From contig DASCOT010000236.1 of NCBI GenBank assembly GCA_036012155.1, positions 40,655 through 104,654 of the forward strand: DNA of 64,000 bases, in the 5' to 3' direction. A model generated the notes under the pieces. That model was not told the DNA's origin. It searched no databases and was given only the letters and a program-made list of their open reading frames with translations. Both the position numbers and the translations under genes were made by a program. The stretch comes from Acidobacteriota bacterium. GTDB lineage: Bacteria; Acidobacteriota; UBA890; WLXD01. Positions 31,731 through 60,629 of this stretch are shown one piece after another; positions within the stretch are counted from its first letter, which is position 1, and the number at the start of each line of letters is the position of its first letter.

Positions 31731-34421
31731 GTGACTTCCCCACCCCATCGGTACCGCGCTGTCGAACTGCCGACCGTCTATCGGCACGTGCTGTGGTGGG
31801 CTGCTCGGTTGGTTCCACGCCTGCGGCGTCCCAGCTGGAGGCGCGAGTGGGAGGCCGAGATGACCTACGCCTACAGCCGCGCGGTGGCCGATGAGCGTGG
31901 CACGAAGCACCTGTTCGCCCGCGCCTTGTGGGCACACATCGACGCCCTCTGGGTATGGAAAGAGGAGTTCACCATGAGACGCGCGCTCGCCGATGTACGC
32001 CTTGCCCTGCGCAGCCTCCGTCACAGTCCGCTGTTCGCCGGCGCCGCAGTTCTCACACTGGCCCTCGGTATTGGCGCCAACACGGCGATCTTCTCAGTGG
32101 TCAACGCGGTCTTGCTGAAGCCGTTGCCGTTCCCGGAACCGGACAGGCTGGTGATGGTGCTGTACGAGGCGCCCGGCATCGGCTTCCCGAGGGTGCCGTT
32201 TTCGGAAGGTTCGTACGTTTTCGTGAATGACAACCAGCAGGCGTTCGAGTCACTCGGAATGCACACCGAGGAGCGCGTGAACATCGTTGGAGATGAGGAG
32301 CCGGAGCAGGTAGCAGGCGCGCGGATCACGCCTTCGGTGCTGCACGCGCTGCGGGTGTTGCCGTCGATCGGCCGCCCGTTTACCGACGCCGACGCCGCTC
32401 CTGGAGCAGAGCCTGTCGCCCTACTCGCGCGCCAGCTGTGGGAGCGCCGATACGGTGCGGACGAGTCGATCGTCGGCCAAACCGTGGAGCTCGACGGCAT
32501 CATGCGCCGCATCGTCGGCATCATGCCGGAAGGGTTCATGTATCCGTCCGAGGAGACCCGTGTGTGGCGACCGCTCGAGCTCGACCCCGCCAACCTCGAC
32601 GAGGGATCATTCAACGTACCCGGCATCGGCCGCCTGGCGCCCGGGGTGACCCTCGAGATGGCTTTCGAAGAATAGGCTGCCCTGGTAGCTCGGTTCAGCG
32701 AGGCGCTGCCCGACACCTTCTCGGAGGCGACACTCGAGCAGGCGCGCTTCGCGCCACTGCTCACGCCACTCAAGGAAATGGTCGTTGGTGATATCAGGCG
32801 GGCACTGTGGGTCGTTCTGGGCACCGTCGGCCTTGTCCTGTTGATCGCCTGCGCCAACGTTGCCAACCTCTTCCTGGTACGAGCTGAATCCAGACGGCGT
32901 GAGGTAACGCTGCGAGCCGCTCTGGGCGCCCGCCGAGTCGACTTGGCACGGTTCTTCCTGACCGAGAGCATGTTGCTGTCGTGCGGCGGCGGTATCGTCG
33001 GGCTTGGCGCGGCGCTGGCAGCGGTGCGCGGCTTCTCCAGCGCCACCCCGGTATCGATCCCGCGAGTCAACGCGATCACTGTCGATACCACGGTCTTGTT
33101 GTTCACTCTCAGCACGTCGTTGATTGCCGGCCTGCTATTTGGCTGCGTGCCCTTGCTTCGCAGCCGCAGCGGCGACATTGCCATGCGGCTTCGAGAGGGC
33201 AGCCGCGGTGCCACGACGGGAAGCCGAGCGCTTGGAATGCGCAATGTGCTGGTCGTGGCGCAAGTGGCACTCGCACTGGTGCTGTTGGTTGGATCAGGCC
33301 TCATGATCCGCAGCTTCCGCGCGTTGCGCAGCGTGGATCCTGGTTTCGAGTCCGCGGACGTGCTGACGGTGCGGCTCGCTCCGCCGGGCGCCGAATACCC
33401 GCACGCGGAGCAGCGGGCCGTTTTCTGGGAAGCGATCCTCGAGCGCGTCGCGACGATACCGCGCGTCGTATCCGTATCGGCAACGTCTCACTTGCCGCTC
33501 AGTGGCAGGATCTCGTCAGGCGACATCAGCATTGAAGATCATCCGAGACAAGACGATGCACTGCCGCCGCTCGCCGACCGCCGAGCCGTTCCCCCCGACT
33601 TCTTCGCCACCCTGGGTATCCCGGTGCTCGAGGGTCGCGAGTTCGTCGCCACGGACGCCGCCGACAACTACCGTGCCGCGGTTGTGAGCGAGTCACTGGC
33701 GCGCCACTGGTGGCCCAACGAGAGTGCCCTGGGCAAGCGCATTGGCGAGAGTGAAGAGGAGGAGTGGTATCAGATCGTCGGTGTGGTGGGGGACGTGCGA
33801 CACGAATCCCTCGAGAAGCCGACGGCAGAGACCGCGTACTTCCCTTTGCGGTCGGGGCCTATCGATGAGATCAGCGTCCCGGGCGGGATGGATCTGGTAG
33901 TGAGAGCCGTTGGCGATCCTGACGCGCTCGCGACGGCCGTCCGCAACGCGATATGGGAAATCGATCCACGGCTGCCGATCGCCAACATGCAACCATTGGA
34001 TCGAATCGTCAGCGATTCGCTGTCGCGTACCTCGTTCACCCTGCTGATGCTCGGCATCGCCGCCGGAGTGGCCCTGCTGCTCGGAGCCATAGGGATCTAC
34101 GGCGTGATCTCCTACATCGTCAGCCAGCGCACTCAGGAGATTGGCGTGCGCATCGCGCTGGGATCCTCGCGAGGCGGCGTTCAGGCGATGGTCGTTCGTC
34201 GGGGCCTCGTTCTGGCCGCCGTCGGGATTGTCATCGGCCTGGGGGCGGCAGTCGCGGTAAGTCGTGTGTTGACGTCGCTGCTGTACGAGGTCAATAGCAA
34301 CGACCCGACGACCTACGCCGGCGTCGCAGCGGTCCTCGGACTGGTGGCGCTGGTCGCCAGCTGGCTGCCGGCAATTCGTGCCTCGAGCGTCGACCCGGTC
34401 GTTGCATTGCGGGCCGATTGA
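31731..34421 (+). pseudogene. ADOP-family (duplicated FtsX/MacB-like) ABC permease with permease-prefix domain, interrupted by in-frame TAG at 32673-32675
   Basis: Two same-frame ORFs (31347..32675, 32778..34421) with continuous ADOP homology across the stop ([32 protein letters not shown]...; ...[31 protein letters not shown]...); AGGAGA-N6-GTG start at 31731. Confidence 0.65.
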
Positions 34422-34431
34422 GGGCAGCTCT

Positions 34432-35883
34432 TCAGCTCAGACCGAAGGCATACAGCGTGCCTCGAGTGCGTACGTAGATTCGACCGTCAGCTATCGCTGG
34501 AGTGGCGTAGCAAAGGTCGTCAAGATCCGACACGGTGATCGGATCGAGGCCGCCATCCGGCTCGAGCACCGAGAGCATCCCGAGCTCCGACAGCATAAAG
34601 ACCTTGCCGTCGGCGGCGATCGGCGACGCATAGTACTGGTCTACAGCACCCTTGAGGCGACCCTGCTTGATCACCTCGCCGGTCTGCGGATCGAACGACG
34701 TGACGATGCCGCCATCGTTCACCATGTACAGCACGTTGTTGTAGATGAGCGGCGAGGGTAGCTGCGGGACGGCGCGGTTGTACTCCCAGATCAGGTTCTC
34801 ATCGGTCATGTCACCGCGACCGCCCATGCGGATCGCCAACATGCCGTTGCGACTTTCCAGAGCGGCTCGCAGGTAGGCCCATTCCTCCGAATCGAGCGAG
34901 CCGTCGACGTCCAGGTCGGCCAGACCGAACCAATTCCGAGCGCGGTTCTGGGGCATTTCCTCGGGGTTGATCACGCCGTCGCCATCGACGTCACGTTCTG
35001 CGACAACCTCGCCGAATGGGCGCAGAAACACCTGATTGCCCGGCTGGTTGATCGGCGCCCCGTAGCCGTTGATGTATGCGATGTCATCGAGGATTACCGG
35101 CGTCGACTTCATCTCGAACGAGAGTCCGCGTACCCACCAGATCTTCTCGCCGGTGTCCGGATCATAGGAGTCGAGCAGGAAGGAGCCTGGCAAGATCAGC
35201 TGCGTTTCGCCCTCCGGCGACTCCCATAGCACTGGCGTGGAGTGGCCGCTCTTGGCCTCGGGCCGCTGAACTTCCCAGAGGACCTCGCCGGTGTCCTTAT
35301 GTACGGCGACCATGAACGACCCTACGTTCTGGTCGCATACGAGGATCACTTTGTCCCCAACGAGTACTGGTGAGGCGCCCATTCCGTAGATGTTGTTGAA
35401 CGGACCGAGCGGCACGTGCCAGCGCTCCTCGCCCTCGAACGTGTACGACATCAGGCCGAAGTCGGGAAAGAACACGTAGATCGAGCCATCACCAACGGCG
35501 GGGCTCGGCGCGGCGGCGTTGCTTCGGTAGTCGTAAAACTCGGTTCGAGGTCGCGGAGCCTGGCGTTGCCAGAGCACCTCACCGCTCTCGCGATCGAGCG
35601 CTATGGTCATCAGGTGGTCATTGTCGGTAGCCGTCAGGAAGATGCGCCGCTCCGAGAGGATCGGCGACGAGTGGCCCGGGGCCAGCTCGGTCTTCCAAAT
35701 AACGTTGGTGTCGGGCCCGAAGCTGGTGGGAAGCGCGCCGGTGTCGACAACGCCGGAGCCGTTCGGACCGCGGAACCGAGTCCAGGCCTCGGTCTCGTCC
35801 ATCTGCGCCGGACCGGCGCTGGTCTCGAATGGGAGGGTAGCCAACAGCAGCAGCGCTGCGAGAGTCGTGCGCATCGAGGTCAT
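34432..35883 (-). CDS. Secreted PQQ-repeat beta-propeller protein with EF-hand-like calcium-binding insertion
   Basis: Signal peptide MTSMRTTLAALLLLATLP; PQQ-like blades; DVDGDGVINPEE and DLDVDGSLDSEE EF-hand loops. Confidence 0.7.
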   Translation of the reverse strand: MTSMRTTLAALLLLATLPFETSAGPAQMDETEAWTRFRGPNGSGVVDTGALPTSFGPDTNVIWKTELAPGHSSPILSERRIFLTATDNDHLMTIALDRESGEVLWQRQAPRPRTEFYDYRSNAAAPSPAVGDGSIYVFFPDFGLMSYTFEGEERWHVPLGPFNNIYGMGASPVLVGDKVILVCDQNVGSFMVAVHKDTGEVLWEVQRPEAKSGHSTPVLWESPEGETQLILPGSFLLDSYDPDTGEKIWWVRGLSFEMKSTPVILDDIAYINGYGAPINQPGNQVFLRPFGEVVAERDVDGDGVINPEEMPQNRARNWFGLADLDVDGSLDSEEWAYLRAALESRNGMLAIRMGGRGDMTDENLIWEYNRAVPQLPSPLIYNNVLYMVNDGGIVTSFDPQTGEVIKQGRLKGAVDQYYASPIAADGKVFMLSELGMLSVLEPDGGLDPITVSDLDDLCYATPAIADGRIYVRTRGTLYAFGLS

Positions 35884-35966
35884 CCGTTGTTGCCAGAGAC
35901 GCCGGCAGCGGTGCGCGCCGAAGACACCAGCCGTTGCTGGGAGCAGGTTGACTGTATCATCGTGCA

Positions 35967-36245
35967 ATGGGTAGCCGCAGGATGCTGTTTGTGGCGGTCG
36001 GAGCGCTCGTCGCCGGCCTGTTGGCGCTGATCGTGTACTCGAGCCTGGGCCTCGCACGGGTCACGGGCGAGATCTGCTTTACCTTCAACGGACGCACCGA
36101 GTGCCGTGTGGCCTCGGGATCGACCCGCGAAGAGGCGATCCGCACAGCGGCCGAGATGGCCTGCTCGACGATGGCGGCGGGCATGACCGATCGCATCAAC
36201 TGCACGCAGTCGCGACCAACCCGCACCAGCTGGAACGTCGAGTAG
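35967..36245 (+). CDS. Small membrane-anchored Cys-containing hypothetical protein
   Basis: 92 aa, single TM, 4 Cys; no family recognised. Confidence 0.3.
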   Translation: MGSRRMLFVAVGALVAGLLALIVYSSLGLARVTGEICFTFNGRTECRVASGSTREEAIRTAAEMACSTMAAGMTDRINCTQSRPTRTSWNVE

Positions 36246-36282
36246 GCAACCAGCAGGCCGTGCAGTGACTGTGGCGGGGCTG

Positions 36283-37917
36283 CTACTGGCCCCCGCCGGT
36301 GCGCAGTAGCGCGCTGAGGTCGCGGCCGTCGAGGTCGGCGGGGGCATCGATTCCAAGCAAGCCGGCCAGGGTCGGGGCGATGTCAACGGTGGCGGCGCGC
36401 TCGTGGTGCTCGCCAGCCGCCACACCGGGCCCGGCGACGATCATCGGCACGTGGGAGTCGTAGTCGAACACCGTTCCGTGGGTCGTACCCATCGATTGAT
36501 CGTCCAAGAAGTAATCGTGGAACTGGACAACCAGGTCGGGACTCCGACCCGGAAAGTAGTTGTTCCGATATCGCTGCGTCTGCAGATCGGCGGACGGGGC
36601 CTCGTCCATCAGCTCGGCCGACGTCCAAACACGCTCGACCATCGGACAGGCGCTCAGAATCGCGGCCAACTCCGCCTCCACGTCCGCCTTGTCGAGCTCC
36701 TGCGCGGCGATCACCGCTTCGTCGAGGTAGTAGCTCGACTCGATCCACGCATGGTCGCCGAGCCGCTCGCGTAATCGCGCGCCCGCCTGCTGGACGCAGA
36801 GAAGGTCGGCACCGTCGAGTCGCTCCCCCTCCACCCCGCGGCGCGCAACGTATTCCGGCATCACCTGAACGCCATGATCAGCACTCAGCGCGAACAGCAC
36901 GTGGTCAAGACCGACGCGCTCGTCGATGAACTCCAGGAGCTCGGCGAGACGGCGATCGAGATTCACCAGGATGTCGAGGGTCTCCGGGGCGTTGGGCCCG
37001 TACGAATGTCCCACGTAGTCGAGCGAGGAGAACGACAGGCCAAGAAGATCGACACTGCCATCGGCCCCGAGATCCTCGTTGACGATCAAGGCTTGAGCCA
37101 GCTCGGCCAGATACCAGTCGCCCCACGGACTGTTCGGAATCCGCCCGTAGAAAGATGCGCCCGGTATCGGACTCGACCAACCGAGCACGTGCGGGAAAGC
37201 GCGTGCAAAGGCCCCGGTGTCGACATGCTCGACATCGACCTCGGGCCAGAGGCGCGCGTCGGTGAGTGGCTCCCAGGGGGTACCGTAGAAGCGGTTGAGC
37301 CGTTCCTCCCGGTTGAACTGGACCAGCCAATCAGGGAGCGAGGTCCCGTAGAAGCTGCTGCTCGTCCAGAAACCGTAGGTGCCGTCATACCAGAAGGCAC
37401 CGTCGGCGCCCTGCCCCCCCAGCATGATCGCCGAGCGATCCTTGATGCTGGCCGTGAGCACCTTCGAGCGTGGGTCCGCCGCCTTCATCCAGTCGCCAAT
37501 CGCCGTCCCCTCCAGCAACAGCGGCGAGCGCTGGCCCGCCGGCCCGCCAGAGTAAACTGAGACGTTCTGCAGCCGGTCGTACCAGTCGTTGCCGACGATA
37601 CCCGAGCGCGCCGGCTCGAGACCCGTCGAGATCGTCGCGTGCCCCGGAGCGGTCGCGGTCATCGAGTGGTTCTGATGCGCGTCGGTGAACACGGCGCCGG
37701 AATCGAGCAGGTGAGCTAGACCGCCGGTGAATAGCGATCGGAATCGCACCAGATAGTCGTACCGCGCCTGGTCGATGGAGATGATCACCACCAGCGAGGG
37801 ATCATCGCCGCGCGGCAGCGGCGCCAGTACAGGCGCCGCCGTCGACGCACAGTGCGCCACTGAGAGTGGCAGCACACAGGCGAGCAAGCAGCGCAGGGCT
37901 AGCGGTTTTCGACGCAA
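36283..37917 (-). CDS. Alkaline phosphatase superfamily protein (nucleotide pyrophosphatase/phosphodiesterase-like), secreted
   Basis: Signal peptide; VVIISIDQARYDY metal-binding N-terminal motif typical of type I phosphodiesterase/NPP family. Confidence 0.8.
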   Translation of the reverse strand: MRRKPLALRCLLACVLPLSVAHCASTAAPVLAPLPRGDDPSLVVIISIDQARYDYLVRFRSLFTGGLAHLLDSGAVFTDAHQNHSMTATAPGHATISTGLEPARSGIVGNDWYDRLQNVSVYSGGPAGQRSPLLLEGTAIGDWMKAADPRSKVLTASIKDRSAIMLGGQGADGAFWYDGTYGFWTSSSFYGTSLPDWLVQFNREERLNRFYGTPWEPLTDARLWPEVDVEHVDTGAFARAFPHVLGWSSPIPGASFYGRIPNSPWGDWYLAELAQALIVNEDLGADGSVDLLGLSFSSLDYVGHSYGPNAPETLDILVNLDRRLAELLEFIDERVGLDHVLFALSADHGVQVMPEYVARRGVEGERLDGADLLCVQQAGARLRERLGDHAWIESSYYLDEAVIAAQELDKADVEAELAAILSACPMVERVWTSAELMDEAPSADLQTQRYRNNYFPGRSPDLVVQFHDYFLDDQSMGTTHGTVFDYDSHVPMIVAGPGVAAGEHHERAATVDIAPTLAGLLGIDAPADLDGRDLSALLRTGGGQ

Positions 37918-37951
37918 GGAGACAGCTTCGCGAGTCTGGATCGGGATGCGG

Positions 37952-40276
37952 CTAGAAGTCGAACGACCGTGTCATCTTGGCGATCACGGCCTGGTCCAGT
38001 AGACCATAGAACTCCGGATCGTAGCGCACCGTCGACTTGTAGACCAGAAACAGATCGTCGCCAGTGCGGTGGATGAAGTTCAGCCGCGCGAAGATCGAGA
38101 GCCGCTCGGCAATGCTGTTGTATTGCACCAGGGCGCTCGTCAGCCAGCGCTCAGTGAAGTTATACGATGCCCCCATGCTGGCCACGTGGGTGTCAAAGGC
38201 GTCTGTGGGCAGCTCGATGCGGTTGAAGTCGTAGCGCGGCGACAGCGACAGCTTCTCGTTGAACCGCATGCTCATGCTACCGCCGTAGGAACTCCGCGTG
38301 CCGCCGAAGAAGCCGCCGCCGCTGGCGTTGACGCGACCGCTTAGCCGTCTCGCCCGGTACGACTCGAACGACACGCGCCACTCATTGCTGAGGTAGTCGC
38401 CGGCGCCGATCTCCGCCTGATCCGATACCTCGAACGGCTCTCGGATACGCTCGAAGGAGCGCTGTACCATGACGCTTGCCGAATCGCCCGACTCCAGTTG
38501 ATAGCGGGTCCAGAGAGTATGTTCCCGGGTCTCGGGGTTGCCGTTGATGTCGGTGACGTACTCGAGCACGGTGAAGAACATCATCTGCCGCATCCACGAC
38601 CAGCTTGGTCGAGGCTTCCAGCCAAGGCGATAGCTCTGCCGCACCATGTCGTGCCGCCGGACAAAGCCCATGTCGGTGGCGAAGTCGGGATCGACGTAAC
38701 TAACGCTCGCCTGGGCGCTCCACAGATCGCTGTCCCAACCCGCGTCAAGAGCGCCCACGTACTGCACTTTGTCGACTTCGGAATCGCGCGCCTGCGCAAC
38801 GTAACCACGCACGCTCATGTGGTCGAAGAACCGGAAGCTGGCGTCGATACCACCGACACGATTGTGCTCACCGCCACCCTGAACGTTGGTCAGGATCACG
38901 CCAACCGACGAGCGATCGAAGATGTCCTGCTTGAGCCGCAACGTGGTGTGGTTGTTTCCGGTGTAGCCGATCTCGCGGTTGTCGCCCGTCTGAGCGTTGA
39001 TGAAGCCGATGCTCGTGTTGCCGATCTTTCCGGTCAATTTCGCGCCGTACCGCATGGCGACCGGAGTTCCATCGAATAGCCCGATATTGCGCGAGTGATA
39101 GAGCAGCGCTCCGCTGTCCCCGCCCCCTCCTCGACCTCCGCTGCTGCCAAGAGCGAACTTGTCCGACCCCTCCAGAAAGAACTCCCGTCGCTCCGGGAAG
39201 AACAACGGGAAGCGGGTGAGATTGACGCGCTCCTCGTCGTCCTCGACCTGGGCGAAGTCGGTGTTGACCGTCAAGTCGGCGGTCAAGTTCGGGGACAGCT
39301 GGACCTTGAAATCCTCGATGCCGTAGTCGCCGGAGCGCTCGGTGAGCGGTAGGTCGGTGGCGTTGAGAGCTGAATAGCCGCCGGTCAGGTAGGGCTTCAC
39401 CCGATAGCGACCGGTGAGCCTGAGCCCCTTCAGACCGAGCAAATGGCCGCCCTGCGAAACATTGCGGAAGTTGAAGCCGCGGCGGTAGTTGCTCCAGTTG
39501 ACCTCCTCGTTCGTCCTCCGAATCTCACGGCTGAAATCGATGCCCCAGACATGCCCGCCGGCGGCAAACCGCATCGCCTTGAAGGGGATCTGCAACTCCG
39601 CTTCCCAGCCGTTCGGCGTGATCCTGGCTGCAGCCTCCCACCTCTCGTCCCACCGCGAATTGATGCTGCGCTCGCCCTGCAGCGTAGCGTCGTACTTGGT
39701 GCCGAGAGGGTTGACGCGAAACAGGAACCCATTGCGATGGTCGTGGAACGTGTCGATCAACACGGCGATGCTGTCGTCGGTTTCCAGGCGGCTATCACGG
39801 CGTAGGTCGGAGGCAACGACGCGATCTGGCTCGTCGTACATCACGAAGCCCAGATAGAGGTTGTCGTCGTCGAACAGAATGCGAACCTCGGTGCGCTGCG
39901 AGGGCACTCCACCCTCGACCGGCTCACGTTGTAGAAAGTCGGTCACCACCTCCGCCAGCGCCCACACGTCGTCATCGACCAGACCGTCGATAAGGGGGGC
40001 CACCGGCGCTTCCGTCGCCGCCATTCGTTTGCCGCCCGGGCCGATCTCCGCTTCCTCCTCGGGCGTCGGTGCACGCGCTGACTCGACCGCAGCCGGATCG
40101 GCGGCAGCTTCGAGGGCTTCGCGTAGCTCGCGCTTGGAGTCGTCACGCTGCTGCTTGCCTCGCTCCTGCGACTCAGCTAGAGCGCCAGCGGGCATTGCCA
40201 ATAGGATCACTGCTGCGCTCGCCAGCATGACCATCACCAGCCCGAGATCGCGGCGCAACCTATGCGTAATCGTCAA
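37952..40276 (-). CDS. DUF5916/carbohydrate-binding family 9-like domain outer-membrane-associated protein
   Basis: 774 aa; CBM9-like N-terminal region (PLIDG-LDD--W) followed by long beta-rich region characteristic of DUF5916. Confidence 0.7.
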   Translation of the reverse strand: MTITHRLRRDLGLVMVMLASAAVILLAMPAGALAESQERGKQQRDDSKRELREALEAAADPAAVESARAPTPEEEAEIGPGGKRMAATEAPVAPLIDGLVDDDVWALAEVVTDFLQREPVEGGVPSQRTEVRILFDDDNLYLGFVMYDEPDRVVASDLRRDSRLETDDSIAVLIDTFHDHRNGFLFRVNPLGTKYDATLQGERSINSRWDERWEAAARITPNGWEAELQIPFKAMRFAAGGHVWGIDFSREIRRTNEEVNWSNYRRGFNFRNVSQGGHLLGLKGLRLTGRYRVKPYLTGGYSALNATDLPLTERSGDYGIEDFKVQLSPNLTADLTVNTDFAQVEDDEERVNLTRFPLFFPERREFFLEGSDKFALGSSGGRGGGGDSGALLYHSRNIGLFDGTPVAMRYGAKLTGKIGNTSIGFINAQTGDNREIGYTGNNHTTLRLKQDIFDRSSVGVILTNVQGGGEHNRVGGIDASFRFFDHMSVRGYVAQARDSEVDKVQYVGALDAGWDSDLWSAQASVSYVDPDFATDMGFVRRHDMVRQSYRLGWKPRPSWSWMRQMMFFTVLEYVTDINGNPETREHTLWTRYQLESGDSASVMVQRSFERIREPFEVSDQAEIGAGDYLSNEWRVSFESYRARRLSGRVNASGGGFFGGTRSSYGGSMSMRFNEKLSLSPRYDFNRIELPTDAFDTHVASMGASYNFTERWLTSALVQYNSIAERLSIFARLNFIHRTGDDLFLVYKSTVRYDPEFYGLLDQAVIAKMTRSFDF

Positions 40277-50637: not shown

Positions 50638-50659
50638 CAAGGCGCTCCGATGCGACCGG

Positions 50660-51803: not shown

Positions 51804-52493
51804 ATGAGCACCGCCGCACCGACCACGAAGGACCGCCTGCTCGATGCCGCCGAGCAACTGTTTGGTGACAAGGGCATCACCGCGACATCGCTGCGCGACG
51901 TCACGGCCCTGGCCAACGCCAACCTGGCGTCGGTCAACTATCACTTCGGCAGCAAGGACTCGCTACTGGCCGCAGTCTTCGAGCGTCGGTTCGGACCCAT
52001 GAACGACCGCCGATTGGAGATCCTCTCTGAGTTCCAGGCCGAGGCCGACGATCGTCAGGTGCCGCTCGAGAAGATTCTCTGGGCTTGGCTGGAGCCACCG
52101 TTCCACATGCGCCACGAGGCCGGCGACGCGGGCGAACGCTACATGCGCGTGGTCAGCCGCGTCTATGCCGACCCCACTCACTCGATCCACGAACTCTTCT
52201 TGCGACAGTTCGAGACGGTGCGGGAGCGCTTCCACGACGCCCTCGCCGCTGCCCTGCCGACCATCAGCCCATACGAGATCACGCGCCGTATGCACTACTG
52301 CATCGGTTCCCTGGCACACACGTTTTGCTGGTGCCAGCAGATTCCCAGTCTATGCTCGACCGCAGGGCCTCAGACCGATGAGGTGCTCCACTCACTCGTC
52401 GCCTTCGCCGCCGCAGGAATGCGGGCTCCTGCGGACTCCGACGTACTCCACGAGCTCATCGGCAGCGCCAACGCGACGGAGTCTTCCCGGTGA
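51804..52493 (+). CDS. TetR/AcrR family transcriptional regulator
   Basis: N-terminal HTH LLDAAEQLFGDKGITATSLRDVTALANANLASVNYHFGSKDSLL. Confidence 0.85.
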   Translation: MSTAAPTTKDRLLDAAEQLFGDKGITATSLRDVTALANANLASVNYHFGSKDSLLAAVFERRFGPMNDRRLEILSEFQAEADDRQVPLEKILWAWLEPPFHMRHEAGDAGERYMRVVSRVYADPTHSIHELFLRQFETVRERFHDALAAALPTISPYEITRRMHYCIGSLAHTFCWCQQIPSLCSTAGPQTDEVLHSLVAFAAAGMRAPADSDVLHELIGSANATESSR

Positions 52494-53953
52494 TTCGAGT
52501 CGCCCTTGCCGCGGCCTTGCTGGTGCCCGGCATCAGCTGCGTTTCCGCTCCCCCCACGACGCAGCCCACCACCGACATTGCCGTGCCGGCGGAGTTCGGC
52601 CAGCCAGCCGCCGCTGAATCCACCGGTGTCCGTGCCAATTGGTGGAACGACTTCGGCGAGCATGGCTTGGCTGCCGCGGTGGACCAAGCGCTGCAGTACA
52701 ACACCGATCTTCTGGCAGCCGCGGCGCGCGTGGCGGGAGCGGAGGCCAGCGCACGAATCGCTGGCGCTGATCTAGGCCCACAGCTCGGAGCCAGTGCCCT
52801 GGGCACCCGCCGCAAACAGAACTTCGTCGGATTCCCCATTCCCGGCAACAACGACCGCGTGCTCAGCACCACATCGACGAATTACGGCGTGTCGCTCGAG
52901 CTCTCCTGGGAAGCCGACCTCTGGGGCCGTCTCGGCGCCCAGGCTCGCGAGGGCCTGGCCAACTACCAGGCGAGTGAGGCGGAGTATGCCGGGGCACTGC
53001 TCTCGATCGCCGCCCAGACAACCAAGGCGTGGTTCGCGGTGGCCGAGGCCCAGCAGCAGGTCGCTCTCGCGGAGCGCACGGTTGCCAGCTTCACGCGCTC
53101 GTCGGAGCAGGTTCGCGCGCGGTTCGAGCGCGGCGTCCGCCCGGCACTTGATCTGCGGTTGGCGATGGCACAGGCGTCAGCGGCTGGCGCAACGCTACTG
53201 GCCCGGCGTCAGCAGGTCGACGCCGCCGGCCGCCAGCTACAGGTACTGCTTGGCGTCTATCCTGGCGGCGAGTACGAGTTCCCGGCAACGCTCATCGGCA
53301 CTCCCGCCCCCGTGCCATCCGGGCTGCCAGCGGATCTGGTGGCGCGCCGGCCCGACCTCGCCGCCGCCGAGCGGCGTCTCGTCGCAGCGGACCAGCGCCT
53401 CCGCGGAGCGCGCGCCGCGCTCTATCCACGACTCAGCCTCACTACCTCCGGCGGCACGTCGAGCAACCAGTTGGGTGACCTCGTGAAGGGAGATTTCTCG
53501 GTGTGGAGCCTCATCGGCAACCTCGTGGCCCCCCTGCTCCAGGGCGGTAGGCTGCGCGCCGGAGTCGACCTCGCACAGGCCGGCATCGACGAGGCGACCG
53601 CGACCTACGTGGGCACCGCACTGCGTGCCTATGCAGAAGTCGAATCCGCATTGGCGGCAGAGACACTACTTGCCGATCAGGTGCGCCAACTGGCGGCGGC
53701 GTCGGAGCAATCGGGCTCCGCCGAGCGGCTCGCTGGCGAGCGCTATCGAAACGGATTGGAGGGCTACGTAACAGTGCTCGAGGCACAGCGTCGGACCTTC
53801 GATGCCGAGAGCGCGGTGCTCTCCGGGCACCGCCAACGTCTCGACAACCGCGTTGATCTATACCTGGCGCTGGGCGGCGGATTCCACGTCGAGCGCTCCC
53901 GCGCCTCGACCACATCCACTCCGCCCGAGCTCCCCTCGGAGAATCAGCGATGA
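52490..53953 (+). CDS. RND efflux outer-membrane factor (NodT/TolC family)
   Basis: Lipoprotein-like signal, repeated coiled-coil/beta-barrel halves typical of OMF. Confidence 0.85.
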   Translation: MIRVALAAALLVPGISCVSAPPTTQPTTDIAVPAEFGQPAAAESTGVRANWWNDFGEHGLAAAVDQALQYNTDLLAAAARVAGAEASARIAGADLGPQLGASALGTRRKQNFVGFPIPGNNDRVLSTTSTNYGVSLELSWEADLWGRLGAQAREGLANYQASEAEYAGALLSIAAQTTKAWFAVAEAQQQVALAERTVASFTRSSEQVRARFERGVRPALDLRLAMAQASAAGATLLARRQQVDAAGRQLQVLLGVYPGGEYEFPATLIGTPAPVPSGLPADLVARRPDLAAAERRLVAADQRLRGARAALYPRLSLTTSGGTSSNQLGDLVKGDFSVWSLIGNLVAPLLQGGRLRAGVDLAQAGIDEATATYVGTALRAYAEVESALAAETLLADQVRQLAAASEQSGSAERLAGERYRNGLEGYVTVLEAQRRTFDAESAVLSGHRQRLDNRVDLYLALGGGFHVERSRASTTSTPPELPSENQR

Positions 53954-55161
53954 GCCGCCGGATCGTCATCGGATTGAAGATCACCCTGCCCATCCTCGTG
54001 CTCGCGATCGCCGGTGCGACGGCGGCCAGCCTGGCAGGAATGCGCGCTCAACCCGAGCAACGAGCCTCGGCGCCGCTGCCGCCCCTTGTCCGCGTCCATA
54101 CGGTTGCGTCGCAGGAGCACCGCATGGTGGTGGAGAGCCAGGGCACCGTACGCCCGCGCACCGAGAGCCGGGTCGTGCCCGAGGTTTCCGGGCAGGTGGT
54201 GTGGGTCGCCCCGGACTTCGTGTCCGGCGGCTTCTTCGAGGCCGACTCGCCGCTGCTGCGTATCGATGCCCACGACTACGAGCAGGCCCGAATTCGTGCT
54301 CGCGCCGAGGTCGCGGCATCCAGGCTGCGTCAGGCGCAGGCACAAGCGGAGGCCGAGATCGCCGTGCGCGAATGGAGGGACCTGGGCGAGGGAGAGCCGC
54401 CGGCGCTGACCGCCCATGTGCCGCAGCTGGAGAACGCCCGCGCCGCGCTAGCGGCCGCCGAGGCCAACCTGGTGCAGGCGGAGCGCAATCTCGAGCGCAC
54501 CGAGCTCCGCGCTCCGTTCGCTGGGCGGGTGCGTGAGAAGACCGTCGACGTCGGCCAGTTTGTTACTGCCGGGGCCGCGGTCGGGTCGATCTACGCGATC
54601 GACTTTGCCGAGATTCGATTGCCCCTGCCTGACGACGAGCTGGCCTTCCTCGCGGAGCTTCCGTTGGTCTACCGGGGCGAGTCGCAGCGCCTCGGTCCCC
54701 GGGTGACCATACGGGCGGATTTCGCCGGCCGGACCCACGAGTGGCAGGGCCGCCTGGTGCGGACGGAGGGCGAGATCGACCCCGCGAGCCGCATGGTCCA
54801 CGCGGTCGCCCAGGTAAGGAATCCCTACGGCCGCGGCACGGATCCCCAGCGGCCGCCGCTCGCCGTCGGCATGTATGTTCGTGCCGAGATCGAAGGCGCG
54901 ACCGCCAACGGTGTCGTCCTGCTACCGCGCTCCGCGGTGCGTGTTGACGGCCGGGTGCTCGTCGTCGATGCGCAGCATCGCTTGCGATTCCGCCAGATCG
55001 AGATCCTGCGAGCGACACGGGACACCCTCGTGGTGGCCTCCGGGTTGCGCGATGGCGAGCGGGTCGTGCTGTCGGCGCTGGACGCCGTGACCAACGGCAT
55101 GGTGGTACGCGTCGAGGCAGCGGCCGCCGAGGGGTCGCGCCCCGGGCAGACGGGCCAGTGA
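53950..55161 (+). CDS. RND efflux periplasmic adaptor (membrane fusion protein)
   Basis: N-terminal TM, coiled-coil hairpin, beta-barrel and MP domains; stop-start overlap with neighbours. Confidence 0.85.
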   Translation: MSRRIVIGLKITLPILVLAIAGATAASLAGMRAQPEQRASAPLPPLVRVHTVASQEHRMVVESQGTVRPRTESRVVPEVSGQVVWVAPDFVSGGFFEADSPLLRIDAHDYEQARIRARAEVAASRLRQAQAQAEAEIAVREWRDLGEGEPPALTAHVPQLENARAALAAAEANLVQAERNLERTELRAPFAGRVREKTVDVGQFVTAGAAVGSIYAIDFAEIRLPLPDDELAFLAELPLVYRGESQRLGPRVTIRADFAGRTHEWQGRLVRTEGEIDPASRMVHAVAQVRNPYGRGTDPQRPPLAVGMYVRAEIEGATANGVVLLPRSAVRVDGRVLVVDAQHRLRFRQIEILRATRDTLVVASGLRDGERVVLSALDAVTNGMVVRVEAAAAEGSRPGQTGQ

Positions 55162-58100
55162 GCGGCGCGATCGCCTGGTTCGCCCGCAACCGCGTCGCTG
55201 CGAACCTGCTCATGGCGTTCGTTCTCGGCGCCGGTGTGATGACGGTCAGCAGGGTGCCGCAGGAGGTCTTCCCGGAGTTCGCCCTCGACCTTATCCAGGT
55301 AACCGTGCCCTATCTGGGCGCCGCCCCCGAAGAGGTCGAGCAGGGGGTCAACGTAAGGATCGAGGAGGCAGTCCAGGGCATCGACGGCATCAAGAAAGTG
55401 ACCTCCACGGCCGCGGAGGGCAACGGCACCGTGATGATCGAGCTCGAAATCGACGCCGATGCGCGCAAGGTTCTCGACGACATCAAGACCAACGTCGATG
55501 CTATCGAGACCTTCCCGCAGGAGACCGAGAAGCCGATCATCCGCGAGCTCACCAACCGTCGGCAGGTGGTCGATGTGGCGATCTTCGGCGACACCGATGA
55601 GCTCTCGCTCAAGCACCTCGCCGAGCGCGTGCGCGACGAGATCGCGGCATTGCCCGAGATCACGCAGGTAGAGGTCGCCAACGCGCGCCCCTACGAGGTA
55701 ACGATCGAGATCTCTGAGGACGCGCTGCGCCGCCACGGCATCACCTTCGATTTCGTAGCCAACGCGGTGCGACGATCGTCGATGGATCTGCCCGGCGGGT
55801 CGGTCAAGACCGACGGTGGCGAGATTCTGCTGCGCACCATGGGCCAGGCCTATACGGGGGATGAGTTCGACAGGCTGGTGCTGTTGACGAGGCCGGATGG
55901 CACACACCTTCAGCTGGGCGATATCGCCAGGGTGGTTGACGGATTCGCCGACACCGACCAGATCTCACGCTTCGACGGCAAGCCGGCGATGCTGGTGAAG
56001 GTCTACCGTACCGGTCGCCAACGGGCTCTCGACGTGGCGGGCGCGGTCAACGGCTACGTCGAGGGAGCACGCGACCGGATGCCAGCGGGCATTGCGCTGA
56101 CCACCTGGCAGGACCAGTCGCGGGTGCTGCGAGATCGTCTCGATATGCTGCTCCGGAATGGCCGCGTCGGGTTCGCGCTCGTCTTCCTGTCGCTGGCTCT
56201 GTTCCTGCGACTGCGACTGGCGTTCTGGGTGAGCCTGGGCATACCGGTCAGCTTCCTGGGGGCGATCTGGCTGATGCCGGGGTTGGACGTGTCGGTGAAC
56301 CTGATGTCGTTGTTCGCTTTCATCCTCGTGCTCGGAATGGTCGTTGATGACGCCATCGTGGTGGGCGAGAACATCTACACGCATCAGCAACGGCACGACG
56401 ATCCCCTTCGCGCGGCGATCGAGGGCACGCGCGAGGTTTCCAAACCGGTGGTTTTCGCGATTCTCACCAGCATGGCTGCGTTCGCACCGCTGCTCGCGGT
56501 GCCCGGTGTGATCGGCAAGATCATGGTGACTGCGCCGCTCATCGTGATCTCGTGCCTGACGTTCTCGTTGGTCGAGTCGCTGTTCATCTTGCCGGCGCAT
56601 CTGTCGCACCGACGGCGCCGCCCGGCAAAGGAGCGCGGCCTCTGGTTTCGCTTGCAGCGCAAGATCTCGGGGGGATTGCACTGGCTCATCGAGAATGTCT
56701 ACGAGCCGGCTCTTCAGGTGGGGTTGCGTTGGCGCTATCTCACTGTTGCGATCGGCGTAGCGACGCTGCTCGTCACGCTGGGTCTAGTTAGCGCCGGCTT
56801 CGTGCGCTTCATCTTCATGCCCGACATCGAGGCCGACTTCGTCATCATGTCGCTGACGATGCCGCAGGGCACACCGGTAGAGGTCACGTCCTCGACCGTC
56901 CGACATATCGAGGAAAGCTCCGAGCGCTTGCGGCAGGAGATCATCGACGACTTCGGCAACGACGCCTTCGTGCACACGTTCGCGGCGATCGGTGCCCAGC
57001 CGATGCAGGCGGCCCAACGCTCGGGGTTCGGCAATGTCGAGATCAGCGGCTCGACGGCCCACCTCGCTGAGGTAACCATCGAGCTCACCCCCGCCGAAAG
57101 CCGCGAAACGGTGTCCAGTGAGTGGGTCGCCAACCGATGGCGCGACCTCACCGGGACCATTCCGGACGCCGTCAGGGTCAACGTCACCGCGTCGTTGTTC
57201 ACAGTCGGAGACGACATCAACATCCAGTTCACCGGCCTCGATCTCGACGCCCTCACCGCTGCGGCGGACATGCTCAAGGATCGTCTCGGCGACTACGACG
57301 GCGTTTACGAGATCAGCGATACCTTCGTGGAAGGCAAGCGCGAGCTGAAGCTCGACATCAAGCCGCAGGCCGAGATCCTCGGATTGACGCTGTCTGACCT
57401 CGGTCGGCAGGTGCGCCAGGCGTTCTACGGCGAAGAAGCGCAGCGCATCCAGCGCGGCCGCGATGACGTTCGCGTAATGGTGCGGTATCCGCAGCAACAG
57501 CGTCGCTCGATCGGCAATCTCGAGGCGATGCGGATCCGCACACCGGGTGGCGCAGAGGTGCCATTCGGTCAGGTGGCAACGGTCGAGCAGGGTCGCGGGT
57601 ACTCGACCATCGAACGGGTGGATCGAAGTCGCGCAGTGAGCGTTACCGCGTCGGTCAACCGTGCCGTCGCTACGCCCGGAAGTATCAACACCGACCTGGC
57701 GAGTACGGTGCTGCCGCAGATCGCCGCTGCCATTCCTGACGTCCGGTTCTCGTTCGAAGGGCAAGCCGCGGAGCAGCGTGACACCACGGGAGGCTTGGTG
57801 CGGGGCTTCGCACTGGCGCTGATCGCCATCTTCGGACTGCTGGCCATCCCGCTGCGCTCCTATGTGCAACCGCTGATCATCATGGCCGCGATCCCCTTCG
57901 GGCTCGTGGGCGCGGTTTGGGGCCACATCATCGTGGGGCTCGACCTGACCATCCTGTCGATGTTCGGTGTCGTTGCTCTCGCCGGTGTCGTGGTCAACGA
58001 CAGCCTGGTCCTGGTGGACTACATCAATCGTCTACTCGAAACCGCCGACGATGTGCGGGGCGCGGTGCTGGAAGCCGGCCGAGCAAGGTTCAGGCCGATC

Positions 58101-58379
58101 CTGTTGACCTCGCTGACGACCTTCGCCGGGCTGCTACCGATGATCCTGGAGAAGAGCTTGCAGGCGCAGTTCTTGATTCCGATGGCCGTATCGCTGGCGT
58201 TCGGCGTGCTCTTTGCCACCTTTGTCATCCTCGCCCTCGTCCCGTGCAGCTACATGATCGTCGACGACGTTCAGAGGCTCCCGGAGAGGTTGCGTGACTG
58301 GCGGCAGCGGAGCGCCGCTGATCTCGGCGAGCCCAGCGAGGACGTGATCGTAGGCCGTCGAAACCCCGCCGCTGGTTGA
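55158..58379 (+). CDS. RND efflux transporter permease (AcrB/CzcA/HAE family)
   Basis: 1073 aa, 12-TM architecture with two large periplasmic loops, conserved TM4 D-containing segment. Confidence 0.9.
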   Translation: MSGAIAWFARNRVAANLLMAFVLGAGVMTVSRVPQEVFPEFALDLIQVTVPYLGAAPEEVEQGVNVRIEEAVQGIDGIKKVTSTAAEGNGTVMIELEIDADARKVLDDIKTNVDAIETFPQETEKPIIRELTNRRQVVDVAIFGDTDELSLKHLAERVRDEIAALPEITQVEVANARPYEVTIEISEDALRRHGITFDFVANAVRRSSMDLPGGSVKTDGGEILLRTMGQAYTGDEFDRLVLLTRPDGTHLQLGDIARVVDGFADTDQISRFDGKPAMLVKVYRTGRQRALDVAGAVNGYVEGARDRMPAGIALTTWQDQSRVLRDRLDMLLRNGRVGFALVFLSLALFLRLRLAFWVSLGIPVSFLGAIWLMPGLDVSVNLMSLFAFILVLGMVVDDAIVVGENIYTHQQRHDDPLRAAIEGTREVSKPVVFAILTSMAAFAPLLAVPGVIGKIMVTAPLIVISCLTFSLVESLFILPAHLSHRRRRPAKERGLWFRLQRKISGGLHWLIENVYEPALQVGLRWRYLTVAIGVATLLVTLGLVSAGFVRFIFMPDIEADFVIMSLTMPQGTPVEVTSSTVRHIEESSERLRQEIIDDFGNDAFVHTFAAIGAQPMQAAQRSGFGNVEISGSTAHLAEVTIELTPAESRETVSSEWVANRWRDLTGTIPDAVRVNVTASLFTVGDDINIQFTGLDLDALTAAADMLKDRLGDYDGVYEISDTFVEGKRELKLDIKPQAEILGLTLSDLGRQVRQAFYGEEAQRIQRGRDDVRVMVRYPQQQRRSIGNLEAMRIRTPGGAEVPFGQVATVEQGRGYSTIERVDRSRAVSVTASVNRAVATPGSINTDLASTVLPQIAAAIPDVRFSFEGQAAEQRDTTGGLVRGFALALIAIFGLLAIPLRSYVQPLIIMAAIPFGLVGAVWGHIIVGLDLTILSMFGVVALAGVVVNDSLVLVDYINRLLETADDVRGAVLEAGRARFRPILLTSLTTFAGLLPMILEKSLQAQFLIPMAVSLAFGVLFATFVILALVPCSYMIVDDVQRLPERLRDWRQRSAADLGEPSEDVIVGRRNPAAG

Positions 58380-58414
58380 GTCTCGGTCTTGTCCCGCGGG
58401 TTCCAGCGCTAGCG

Positions 58415-59332
58415 TCAGCAACCACGCAGAGCCAACAGCAGGATCGCCAGCACCACGACGATACCGCCGACAATGAGAGTCGTCCGGTTCCGCGCCGTAG
58501 CTTGCACGCGCGCGGCGGCTCCTTCGCCGATCCTTCCCTGCAGAGCGGGCACCCGCAGCTCGAGGTCATCCAGCGCTGCAACCAAAGCGCGTGGGTCAGC
58601 GAAGCGCTCGCGCGGGTTCTCTGCGAGACAACGCAGAATCAACGGGTCGATCTCGGGCGGCACTTCGCCGCGTACCTGACTCGGAATACGAAACCCGCCA
58701 ACCGGCAGAGTTCCGGTGAGCAGCTCGTAGCCAACGACACCCAACGAGTACACGATCGATTGTTGATCCGGCGCAGCGTCAGGGGTAGCCATGCGCTCGG
58801 GCGCCAGGTAGCGCACCGCTCCGAGCGAGTGCAGCGTTGCGGTGGAGCCTGCATCCATTCCCGCCGGCGCCATCGGCATGCCGACGTCGATGACCTTCAC
58901 AGCGTGACCTTCGCCGTGGACGAGGATGCGATCCGGATCGACGCCTTCACAAGGCAAGCCCTTGCCGTGCGCATGTCCAAGGGCTCTGGCGGTGCCACGC
59001 AGCACGTCGATCACGTCGTGCGTGTCGAGGCGCCGGTGCGCCAGTACCTTGCGAAGCGACGAGCCCTTCACGAACTCCATCGCGGCGTAGGCGCGGTCCT
59101 CGTGCTCACCGCAATCGAGCACGTCGACGACGTTCTCGTGGTCGAGATCTCTGGTAGCCGTCAGGATCTCGAGACGTCGAGCGCGCACGGCTTCCGGCTC
59201 GCCGGCCGGTTACAGCAGGATGGCAACGGCGCCTCCGCCATCGCCAGCCGCCTTATAGACCTCGCTCTGCCCGCCTTCGTCGAGCCTCGCCTCGACCTTG
59301 TAGCCACCGATCCTCTCGGGTATCTCAGTCAT
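58415..59332 (-). pseudogene. Ser/Thr protein kinase-like gene with in-frame TAA at 59210-59212 and degenerate catalytic motifs (pseudokinase-like)
   Basis: Minus-strand translation MTEIPERIGGYKVEARLDEGGQSEVYKA...AVAILL*PAGEPEAV..HENVV...YAAMEFVKG...DVG...APE: kinase N-lobe and C-lobe in one frame split by TAA; HRD replaced, DFG is DVG; start ATG overlaps FHA gene stop. Confidence 0.6.
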
Positions 59333-60629
59333 CGATCTCGATCACCAGGGTCACAGCACCGACCCGCAGCTTGTCGAAGTCATTCAAGACGACGCTATCG
59401 CTATCCACGGGCTCATCGTTGAGCCGCGTCCCGTGAGTGCTGCCGAGGTCTCGAACGCGGAATTCATCATCTTCCTACAGGATGGACAAATGTCGCTTGC
59501 TGGCAGCCGGGTCGGAGAGGACGAGGTCACATTCGGGATCGCGCCCCACCACGAGGTCGCCGGCACCGAGCTCGAGTGAGTCCTCGCGACCGGTTCCCTC
59601 ACTAACGACAAGTCGAGCCGGCGGCGGAGAGCCTGGGTCGCGAGTCGAGCGATCGGGCGGCGAGATCTCGAGGGTGCGGATCGGGAACGGAATGACGATG
59701 TCGTTGCGACGGAACTGTTCCCAGATTTGGGTGCGCAGAGCGCTCTCGATCCGCCGCAGCGGGCCCATGTCGTCCACCCAGGAGCGCAGCTCATAGGTGA
59801 TCGAGCTCTCGTCGAAGTTGTTCACGTAGACCTCGGCGCTCGGTCGCGCCAGCACACCGTCTACCTGACCGGCGGCCGCGAGCATCGCCGCCTTGACCTT
59901 GTGGGGCGGGGTGAGGAAATGCGCCCCGACATAGATCCGAGACATGTGTAGCGGATGTGGATACAGATAGTTGGTGAGGGTCTCCCTCGCCATGTTGGCG
60001 TTGGGGAAGATCACCGTGTCGTTCTGGCGCGTACGGATCGACGTGGTGCGCCAGGTGATCTGCGTTACCCGTCCCTCGTGCTCCCCCACCTGAATCCAAT
60101 CGTTGATACGGAACGGCCGCTCGAGCGCGATCACGACCCCGGCAAAGAAGTTTGTCAGGATCGGCTGCAGCGCCAGACCCAGGACCAAGGAGGTAACGGC
60201 GCTGGTGGCGAGCAGCGGCCCGACATTCGTATCCGGAAACGCCACCGTCACGATGGCCGCTCCGGAAACGGCGTAGATAAAGAAGCGCGTGACCCGCGGC
60301 AACAGCGGCGGCACCTCGATGTCCCATTGGCGCCTCAGCAGGACCTCGTAGCCGAGGTAGGTAACACCGCGGATCACCATCACGATGAGGAAGAACCAGA
60401 TGATCGCTGCCAACACGCCGACGCCGCGATCCATGTCGCCGACTCCCGCCACGTTGGCAATCGCAACGCCGAGAGCAAACGCCACTAGCGAGACGGGCAG
60501 TCCGAGCGCTCGCATGGCCGGGTAGCGGCGGCGCAGAGCAAGAAGCGCGACGTAGACCACCGCTGCGGGCACGCCTCCGGCGACCAACGTCGCCGCCAGG
60601 CTCCCACTGAAGTCGCTCGGCATGAGCAC
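59325..60629 (-). pseudogene. MscS-family mechanosensitive channel fused to C-terminal FHA domain, interrupted by in-frame TAG at 59475-59477
   Basis: MscS core (TM helices, beta domain) then FHA start LVVGRDPECDLVLSDPAASKRHLSIL, TAG, then same-frame FRVRDLGSTHGTRLNDEPV...VTLVIEIDD completing the FHA domain. Confidence 0.65.

What the first reader, a model, noticed from the sequence alone, without database searches (positions are those of the whole stretch)
31731..60629. Three nonsense codons (2 TAG, 1 TAA) in otherwise intact genes within 64 kb
TAG is also used as a normal terminator by many confident genes here (e.g. at 11579, 16367, 18111, 19844, 23979, 24343), so a recoded genetic code is unlikely. 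Three clean single-codon nonsense substitutions without frameshifts are nonetheless more than expected in a functional region. Possibilities are strain-level pseudogenisation (MAG consensus), relaxed selection on envelope-stress genes, or suppressor-tRNA-mediated readthrough.
Basis: inference. Interest (0 to 1): 0.5.

Follow-up and report, generated by a model that had tools for sequence, protein, structure and literature searches.

The report
Three ordinary young pseudogenes, one species
Three genes in this soil acidobacterial contig each carry one real single-base stop-codon mutation, fixed in every assembly that covers the sites, and this is ordinary recent loss of dispensable membrane genes, not a changed genetic code or a sequencing error.

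Summary
Exactly three of 51 genes have one internal stop:
- TAG at 32673-32675 in an ADOP-family duplicated permease (31731-34421, +).
- TAG at 59477-59475 in the FHA domain of an MscS-FHA channel gene (60623-59325, -).
- TAA at 59212-59210 in the kinase-like gene that overlaps it by 8 bp (59332-58415, -).

Intact orthologs in related Acidobacteriota carry CAG, TGG and TAC/TAT at these codons. Each lesion is therefore a single G:C-to-A:T-direction substitution.

The same stops are present in every independent metagenome assembly that covers them (99.96-100% identical, several haplotypes). They are not assembly errors and not minority-strain variants.

TAG is a true terminator here: 18 of 51 genes end in TAG, at the same position as their orthologs.

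Two of the three hits lie in one translationally coupled gene pair. That pair is independently damaged in three further related lineages, by a deletion, a truncation and an IS insertion.

Three of 51 genes (5.9%), or two independent loci, fits the 1-5% pseudogene load typical of prokaryotes. No suppressor tRNA or recoding signal was found, though the whole genome could not be scanned.

Verdict: ordinary, already known.

The parts
31731..34421 (+). ADOP-family duplicated MacB/FtsX-type permease gene (897 codons including the internal stop), disrupted
   Evidence: GTG start 12 nt after the PadR stop, with GGAG upstream. TIGR03434 at 921.5 bits, profile 2-803 of 803. Pfam MacB_PCD x2 and FtsX x2. 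Syntenic intact 896-aa ortholog P0001 in L040.
32673..32675 (+). In-frame TAG (codon 315), near the end of the first periplasmic MacB_PCD domain and before TM2
   Evidence: The ortholog codon is CAG (Gln), so this is a C-to-T change. The other 117 aligned homologs have L, M, V, I, A or F at this column, and none has a gap or stop there. TAG is present in L005, L006, L007, L009, L010 and L012.
31402..31719 (+). PadR-family regulator directly upstream of the permease (intact)
   Evidence: Pfam PadR, E = 1.2e-11. Same gene order in L040.
59325..60623 (-). MscS-like mechanosensitive channel gene with a C-terminal FHA domain (432 codons plus stop), disrupted
   Evidence: Pfam MS_channel_2nd, MS_channel_3rd and FHA. 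430-aa intact orthologs in L013-L016 and L042.
59475..59477 (-). In-frame TAG (codon 383) in the middle of the FHA domain; it removes the last 49 residues
   Evidence: All four aligned orthologs have TGG (Trp), so this is a G-to-A change. TAG is present in L001 and L003.
59394..59405 (-). 6-bp tandem duplication (GATAGC GATAGC) downstream of the TAG, absent from all four orthologs
   Evidence: Nucleotide alignment. It is part of the excess of window-specific changes after the stop.
58415..59332 (-). Membrane-anchored protein-kinase-like gene (305 codons), disrupted. Its ATG overlaps the MscS-FHA stop by 8 bp (ATGACTGA).
   Evidence: Pfam Pkinase at 73.6 bits. 305-aa intact orthologs in L015, L016 and L042. 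The overlap is visible and in the L042 gene table.
59210..59212 (-). In-frame TAA (codon 41), two codons after the beta-3 'AIK' lysine position
   Evidence: Orthologs have TAC or TAT (Tyr). TAA is present in L001, L003 and L004.
59216..59218 (-). CTG (Leu) replacing the AAG (Lys) of the AIK motif, which is conserved in all four aligned relatives
   Evidence: Nucleotide and protein alignments.

Best explanation
These are three independent, recent, single-base nonsense mutations. They have become fixed in one low-diversity acidobacterial population and inactivate or truncate dispensable accessory membrane genes. In short, they are ordinary young pseudogenes.

Mechanism:
- Spontaneous G:C-to-A:T-direction substitutions (CAG>TAG, TGG>TAG, TAC/TAT>TAA) created stop codons that the standard code reads as stops.
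- In the ADOP permease, translation ends after TM1 and the first periplasmic domain. The gene belongs to a very large family, so its loss is plausibly cheap (inferred).
- In the MscS-FHA gene, the stop removes the C-terminal half of the FHA domain and leaves the channel part intact.
- The kinase-like gene is translationally coupled to MscS-FHA by an 8-bp overlap. It has lost its conserved lysine and gained a TAA.
- I infer that the phospho-threonine reader (FHA) and the kinase-like partner form one signalling module. Once either part fails, the other is no longer under selection. The premature stop 150 nt upstream of the coupled start would also uncouple translation of the downstream gene.
- Fixation probably came through drift or hitch-hiking in a near-clonal population (inferred).
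For: Shown:
- Frame and homology continue across each stop.
- Ancestral codons are CAG, TGG and TAC/TAT, each one substitution from the stop.
- Stops are identical in all independent assemblies covering the sites. These assemblies are 99.96-100% identical to the window and fall into several SNP haplotypes.
- TAG terminators coincide with ortholog gene ends.
- The same MscS-FHA/kinase locus is independently damaged in relatives. L013 has a deletion joining the acrB and kinase 3' ends. L014 has a truncated kinase. L041 has an IS3-family insertion after MscS residue ~246, with the FHA part and kinase gone. L015, L016 and L042 are intact.
- After the FHA stop, the window lineage has 5 unique replacements in 47 codons, against 2 in total for four relatives. 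Before the stop the counts are 12 against 36 (Fisher p = 0.024). There is also a 6-bp duplication after the stop.
- The conserved Lys codon is lost next to the TAA.
- The ADOP family is huge: 8000 hits at the E<=1e-50 cap.
- No other broken genes appear among 51 window genes or in the flanking gene tables.
- The observed rate is compatible with the 1-5% norm.
Against: - Downstream of the ADOP stop there is no decay. dN/dS is 0.120 after the stop against 0.123 before it. The window lineage also shows no excess of changes at conserved sites (10 against 17 for the ortholog).
- The 264 codons after the kinase TAA are likewise not accelerated (15 unique replacements against 25 and 22).
- This fits a very recent lesion but equally fits continued function.
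- The FHA decay signal rests on small counts.
- Expression and translation were not measured.
- The genome-wide pseudogene rate and the tRNA complement could not be examined.
Confidence: 0.85

Rival explanations
1. Functional truncation or splitting rather than loss. The MscS channel works without its FHA tail. The ADOP permease is made as two pieces, with the 547-aa ORF restarting at ATG 32778. The kinase-like protein restarts at GTG 59188. On this view the alleles are tolerated or even favoured variants.
For: The channel domains (Pfam residues 155-311) lie wholly upstream of the TAG. The regions after the stops in ADOP and the kinase show no excess divergence and no second lesion. Long ORFs with start codons follow both stops.
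Against: The ADOP restart would drop about 35 residues and separate TM1 and the periplasmic domain from TM2. No homolog in the top 120 has such a split. The kinase restart would lack the whole N-lobe. The absence of decay is expected anyway if the lesions are as young as the population's 0-0.04% diversity suggests. The locus is plainly being destroyed in sister lineages.
Confidence: 0.1
2. Stop-codon readthrough by an amber/ochre suppressor tRNA, or pyrrolysine at TAG, keeps the three genes full-length.
For: Only indirect: the lack of downstream decay in two of the three genes.
Against: TAG terminates 18 of 51 genes at the same residue as their orthologs. One site is TAA, which pyrrolysine cannot explain. 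No tRNA and no Rfam element are in the window. No relative shares any of the stops. The segment after the FHA stop is decaying. The ancestral residues (Q, W, Y) are simply those one mutation away from a stop.
Confidence: 0.03
3. Sequencing or assembly artefact, or a MAG consensus that picked up a minority strain allele.
For: The window is evidently metagenome-derived, since identical contigs occur in several metagenome assemblies.
Against: The stops recur in all 6 (site 1), 2 (site 2) and 3 (site 3) other assemblies that cover them. These come from different runs and assemblers, and some carry 1-6 SNP differences elsewhere. No intact allele above 90% identity appeared in the 5.8-billion-protein searches.
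Confidence: 0.02

Closest known systems
Ordinary bacterial pseudogenes formed by nonsense mutation (1-5% of genes in most prokaryotes; ABC transporters over-represented; Liu et al. 2004 as summarised in PMC11078800)
   Same: Single disabling substitutions in otherwise recognisable genes. Orthologs are intact. One affected gene belongs to a very large transporter family. The same locus is independently degraded in sister lineages.
   Different: Nothing essential. All three lesions here are nonsense substitutions rather than the usual mix with frameshifts, but n = 3. All are very young, with no secondary stops or frameshifts.
ADOP family duplicated permease (NCBIfam TIGR03434), often next to a PadR regulator
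   Same: End-to-end HMM match above the cutoff. The MacB_PCD-FtsX architecture is duplicated. No adjacent ABC ATPase. A PadR gene lies directly upstream.
   Different: Interrupted by TAG at codon 315. The PadR neighbour scores below the cutoff of the acidobacterial PadR model TIGR03433 (33.9 against 101.8 bits).
Hanks-type Ser/Thr kinase with FHA-domain partner signalling pairs
   Same: A kinase-fold protein is encoded next to, and translationally coupled with, an FHA-domain protein.
   Different: In all relatives examined the HRD catalytic Asp is replaced (the motif reads 'CEG') and DFG reads 'DVG', so the family looks like a pseudokinase. The FHA domain is fused to an MscS channel. I found no characterised example in the paper library.
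Amber/ochre suppression and pyrrolysine recoding
   Same: In-frame TAG or TAA codons inside conserved domains.
   Different: TAG is demonstrably a terminator here. No tRNA or pyl genes are in the window. The stops are lineage-specific single mutations. One downstream segment is decaying.

Membership tests
Pseudogene (nonsense-disabled gene) | In-frame stop inside a conserved domain, with homology continuing on both sides in the same frame | tested here: met
   Pfam and NCBIfam alignments span all three stops.
Pseudogene (nonsense-disabled gene) | Orthologs in related genomes are intact and carry a sense codon at the site | tested here: met
   CAG in L040. TGG and TAC/TAT in L013-L016. Full-length orthologs in L042.
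Pseudogene (nonsense-disabled gene) | Relaxed selective constraint after the lesion | tested here: inconclusive
   The FHA tail shows a window-specific excess plus a 6-bp duplication (p = 0.024). The ADOP and kinase regions after the stops are not accelerated, as expected if the lesions are very young.
Pseudogene (nonsense-disabled gene) | No full-length protein is produced | not testable with these tools
   Needs proteomics or ribosome profiling.
Stop-codon reassignment or genome-wide suppression | The codon no longer marks gene ends, and in-frame occurrences are common across genes | tested here: not met
   18 of 51 genes end in TAG. In the ten window-ortholog comparisons made, eight end within 0-1 residue of the ortholog's end. 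Only 3 of 51 genes have any internal stop.
Stop-codon reassignment or genome-wide suppression | A cognate suppressor tRNA (anticodon CUA or UUA), or pylT with pylSBCD | not testable with these tools
   No tRNA in the 64-kb window and no Rfam hit. The rest of the genome is not available.
ADOP family (TIGR03434) | HMM score above the curated cutoff over the full profile | tested here: met
   921.5 bits against 622.3, profile 2-803 of 803.
ADOP family (TIGR03434) | Duplicated MacB_PCD-FtsX architecture without an adjacent ABC ATPase ('orphan') | tested here: met
   Two stretches each of MacB_PCD and FtsX. The neighbours are a PadR gene and a PQQ-propeller gene.
Active Hanks-type protein kinase | Beta-3 Lys (VAIK), HRD catalytic Asp and DFG Asp | tested here: not met
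   In the window, Lys is replaced by Leu. HRD reads 'CEG' in the window and in all relatives. DFG reads 'DVG'. The fold match to Pkinase remains.
MscS-type channel with FHA domain | MS_channel_2nd and MS_channel_3rd domains plus a complete FHA domain in one polypeptide | tested here: not met
   The sequence matches all the domains, but the TAG cuts the FHA domain in half. Orthologs of 430 aa are complete.

The most novel reading that the evidence does not exclude
The three stops are leaky. The organism either carries a low-efficiency amber/ochre suppressor, or it tolerates split or restarted products. The ADOP permease and the kinase-like protein would then still be made and still be under selection. 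That would explain why their sequences after the stops show no decay.
Probability: 0.04. Interest if true: 0.5.

Novelty: already known. Interest (0 to 1): 0.1.

Why it matters
It matters little beyond annotation. The three genes should be flagged as pseudogenes or truncated alleles, not merged, 'corrected', or taken as evidence of an alternative code.

Two small points of evolutionary interest:
- The MscS-FHA/pseudokinase pair is lost repeatedly by different mutational routes in closely related soil Acidobacteriota. This marks it as a dispensable, co-dependent module.
- All three lesions are G:C-to-A:T-direction changes in a 65% G+C genome. By my own recollection of the literature, that matches the AT-biased mutation reported across bacteria.

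Tried and rejected
- An exact-protein look-up with the longest TTG-start PALP ORF found nothing because the start was wrong. AcrB and FabH worked instead.
- A possible fourth in-frame TAG at 1838-1840 (-) was checked. The 46 codons upstream of it are an orphan C-terminal fragment of an AMP-binding enzyme, not an extension of the DUF697 gene.
- Other same-frame adjacent ORF pairs are separate genes with different Pfam families: 6949/6950, 12890/12909, 18113/18147 and 47828/47829.
- Pairwise dN/dS against sister species is too coarse to date the lesions, because dS is 0.5-1.2.
- The five-taxon 'unique substitution' count for the kinase first looked accelerated (15 against 4). That reflects the window being a lone branch. 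The three-taxon full-length count shows no acceleration.
- The shared 'CCATCCTG' motif before sites 2 and 3 was noticed. It was not tested statistically and was left as a probable coincidence.
- Literature searches for the sample label (FUCH22), for MscS-FHA channels and for ADOP gave nothing useful.
Full report
**What is in the window**

The window is 62-68% G+C. A codon-usage gene finder plus Pfam annotation gives about 51 genes.

- Site 1 is TAG at 32673-32675 (+), which reads '...LEMAFEE*AALVARF...'. The ORF starts at GTG 31731, 12 nt after the stop of a PadR gene, and ends at 34421.
- Site 2 is TAG at 59477-59475 (-), which reads '...SKRHLSIL*EDDEFRVRDLGSTHGT...'. It lies in a gene running from 60623 to 59325.
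- Site 3 is TAA at 59212-59210 (-), which reads '...GGAVAILL*PAGEPE...'. It lies in a gene running from 59332 to 58415.

With X in place of each stop, the three proteins match known families across the stop.

- Gene 1 is an ADOP-family duplicated permease. It has MacB_PCD x2 and FtsX x2, and TIGR03434 scores 921.5 bits against a 622.3 cutoff over profile positions 2-803 of 803.
- Gene 2 is an MscS-type channel with a C-terminal FHA domain. The FHA profile (2-67 of 67) spans the stop.
- Gene 3 is a Pkinase-fold protein with a C-terminal membrane anchor.

Genes 2 and 3 overlap by 8 bp (ATGACTGA), so they form one translationally coupled pair (the same arrangement is in L042). A scripted check of all 51 genes found internal stops in these three only.

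**Are the stops real?**

Exact-protein look-ups with neighbouring genes recovered the same contig from many public assemblies. These include NCBI GCA_0247118xx and GCA_0247121xx, ENA ERZ23491xxx and ERZ9811087, and Logan assemblies of SRR13782123, SRR13782126, SRR13782127 and SRR4465032. They are 99.96-100% identical to the window and fall into several haplotypes that differ by 1-6 SNPs.

Every assembly that covers a site carries the stop.

- Site 1 (TAG) is present in L005, L006, L007, L009, L010 and L012.
- Site 2 (TAG) is present in L001 and L003.
- Site 3 (TAA) is present in L001, L003 and L004.

The gene callers of those projects also split the genes in the same way: 271+547 aa, 382 aa, and 40+257 aa. 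No intact allele above 90% identity appeared in three searches of 5.8 billion proteins. Assembly error and minority-strain consensus are therefore excluded as far as sequence data allow. Some of these assemblies may derive from the same project, so I claim only several independent assemblies carrying distinct SNP haplotypes.

**Ancestral state**

Four related Acidobacteriota MAG species (L013-L016, 83-87% aa identity) and a fifth (L042, 89%) have intact 430-aa MscS-FHA genes. The four aligned at nucleotide level (L013-L016) carry TGG (Trp) where the window has TAG. Where the kinase-like gene is intact they carry TAC or TAT (Tyr) where the window has TAA.

The nearest ADOP ortholog (P0001, 81% identity, 896 aa) sits in a syntenic PadR-ADOP locus, L040. 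It has CAG (Gln) at codon 315. The other 117 aligned homologs are continuous through that column.

Each lesion is therefore a single substitution: C>T, G>A, and C/T>A. All of them replace, or can replace, a G:C pair with A:T. By my own recollection of the literature, this is the direction of the AT-biased mutation reported across bacteria.

**Is the genetic code standard?**

Terminal stops are TGA 31, TAG 18 and TAA 2. In the ten window-ortholog comparisons possible for TAG-terminated genes, eight end within 0-1 residue of the ortholog's end. Some of those orthologs use TAA or TGA at that position. The window contains no tRNA and no Rfam family at gathering threshold. One of the three sites is TAA, so pyrrolysine cannot be a common explanation.

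**Signs of relaxed selection**

The strongest evidence is comparative. The MscS-FHA/kinase locus is independently damaged in other lineages.

- In L013, a deletion joins the 3' ends of acrB and the kinase gene.
- In L014, the kinase gene is truncated at the same place.
- In L041, the closest relative (92% identity), an IS3-family element interrupts MscS after about residue 246, and the FHA part and the kinase gene are gone.
- L015, L016 and L042 are intact.

Counting the window, four of seven lineages carry lesions at this locus, produced by four different mutational routes.

Within the window lineage, the 47 alignable codons after the FHA stop carry 5 unique replacements. The four relatives together carry 2 there. 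Before the stop the counts are 12 against 36 (Fisher p = 0.024). There is also a 6-bp tandem duplication after the stop. Two codons before the TAA, the AAG (Lys) of the AIK motif, conserved in all four relatives, has become CTG.

By contrast, the ADOP gene shows no decay after its stop. dN/dS is 0.120 after the stop and 0.123 before it, against 0.07-0.19 for neighbouring genes. At conserved sites the window deviates 10 times and the ortholog 17 times. The kinase body is not accelerated either. I read this as youth of the lesions. The population's diversity is only 0-0.04%, so a neutral 1.7-kb stretch would have collected less than one substitution. It also leaves room for the rival view that truncated or split products still function.

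**Is three too many?**

Three of 51 genes is 5.9%. Most prokaryotes carry 1-5% pseudogenes, with ABC transporters prominent among them (PMC11078800, citing Liu et al. 2004). Binomial tails are 0.20 at a 3% rate and 0.47 at 5%. If the coupled pair counts as one locus, P(>=2 of 50) is 0.45 at 3%.

Gene tables for about 10 kb upstream and about 9 kb downstream of the window show no further split genes. The only other relic seen is a 46-codon orphan C-terminal fragment of an AMP-binding enzyme at 1838-1975 (-). The cluster is unremarkable.

**Mechanism (inferred steps marked)**

Shown: there are three nonsense substitutions that the standard code reads as stops. The ADOP product would end after TM1 and the first periplasmic domain. 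The MscS product would keep its channel domains (Pfam residues 155-311) but lose half of its FHA domain. The kinase-like product would end at residue 40.

Inferred: FHA domains read phospho-threonine, so the FHA tail and the kinase-fold partner probably act as one module, and failure of one removes selection on the other. The premature stop lies 150 nt before the coupled start and would also uncouple translation of the downstream gene. The ADOP family is very large (8000 hits at the cap), and by my own recollection of the TIGR03434 description it is highly paralogous within acidobacterial genomes, so losing one copy is probably cheap. Fixation in a near-clonal population probably came through drift or hitch-hiking.

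**Comparison with what is known, and verdict**

This matches ordinary bacterial pseudogenisation in every tested respect. It fails the tests for codon reassignment. The kinase-like family lacks the HRD Asp in all relatives ('CEG'), so it looks like a pseudokinase even when intact. I found no described MscS-FHA/pseudokinase pair in the paper library, which is a minor curiosity.

Novelty: already known. Interest: low (0.1). The residual unusual reading, leaky stops or functional split products, has a probability of about 0.04.

Noticed in passing
window 1838-1975 (-): A 46-codon orphan ORF ('...YAREVELPENFPRTHLGKIDRGELILRG*') resembles the C-terminal motif of AMP-binding/acyl-CoA synthetase enzymes. 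No enzyme body lies upstream. It is probably a gene remnant between the DUF697 gene and the gene at 1979-2905.
   Followed up: partly
L013 ~11797 and L014 ~11777 (window ~58840): Two non-sister relatives lose homology to the kinase-like gene at the same window coordinate (after 'GMD[AS]GST'). In L013 this is a deletion reaching into acrB, and in L014 a junction with unrelated sequence. It could be a recombination or deletion hotspot, or horizontal exchange.
   Followed up: partly
L041 10738-11963: In the closest relative found (92% aa identity), an IS3-family element (HTH_Tnp_1 plus rve ORFs) interrupts the MscS gene after about residue 246. The FHA part, the kinase gene and the RND efflux operon are absent downstream.
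   Followed up: partly
window 58415-59332 (-) and orthologs in L015, L016, L042: The kinase-fold family next to MscS-FHA lacks the HRD catalytic Asp ('CEG') and has 'DVG' for DFG in every species examined, yet it keeps the AIK Lys in all four relatives aligned. It is confined to a small clade (11 database hits at E<=1e-20). This may be an uncharacterised pseudokinase/FHA-channel module.
   Followed up: partly
window 26641-27165, ~30068-30105 and ~34421; L040 2305-3708, 6894-7900 and 12718-13530: Relative to the window, the sister species locus L040 carries three extra segments. These are a Lactamase_B-rhodanese gene (the window has a 524-bp gap there), an IS (HTH_Tnp_1 plus rve) between FBPase and FabH, and a carbonic anhydrase gene right after the ADOP gene.
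   Followed up: no
window, all genes: TAG makes up 35% of terminators (18 of 51) and TAA only 4%, in a genome of about 65% G+C. The TAG share looks fairly high for a high-GC bacterium, though I made no comparison.
   Followed up: partly
window 59213-59222 and 59478-59485 (-): Both minus-strand stops are preceded by the same octamer CCATCCTG (...CCATCCTG TAG... and ...CCATCCTG CTG TAA...). It is probably a coincidence and was not tested statistically.
   Followed up: no
window 5131-6946 (-): Two tandem PhzF-family paralogs (304 and 303 aa) overlap by 11 bp and sit next to a GNAT acetyltransferase gene.
   Followed up: no
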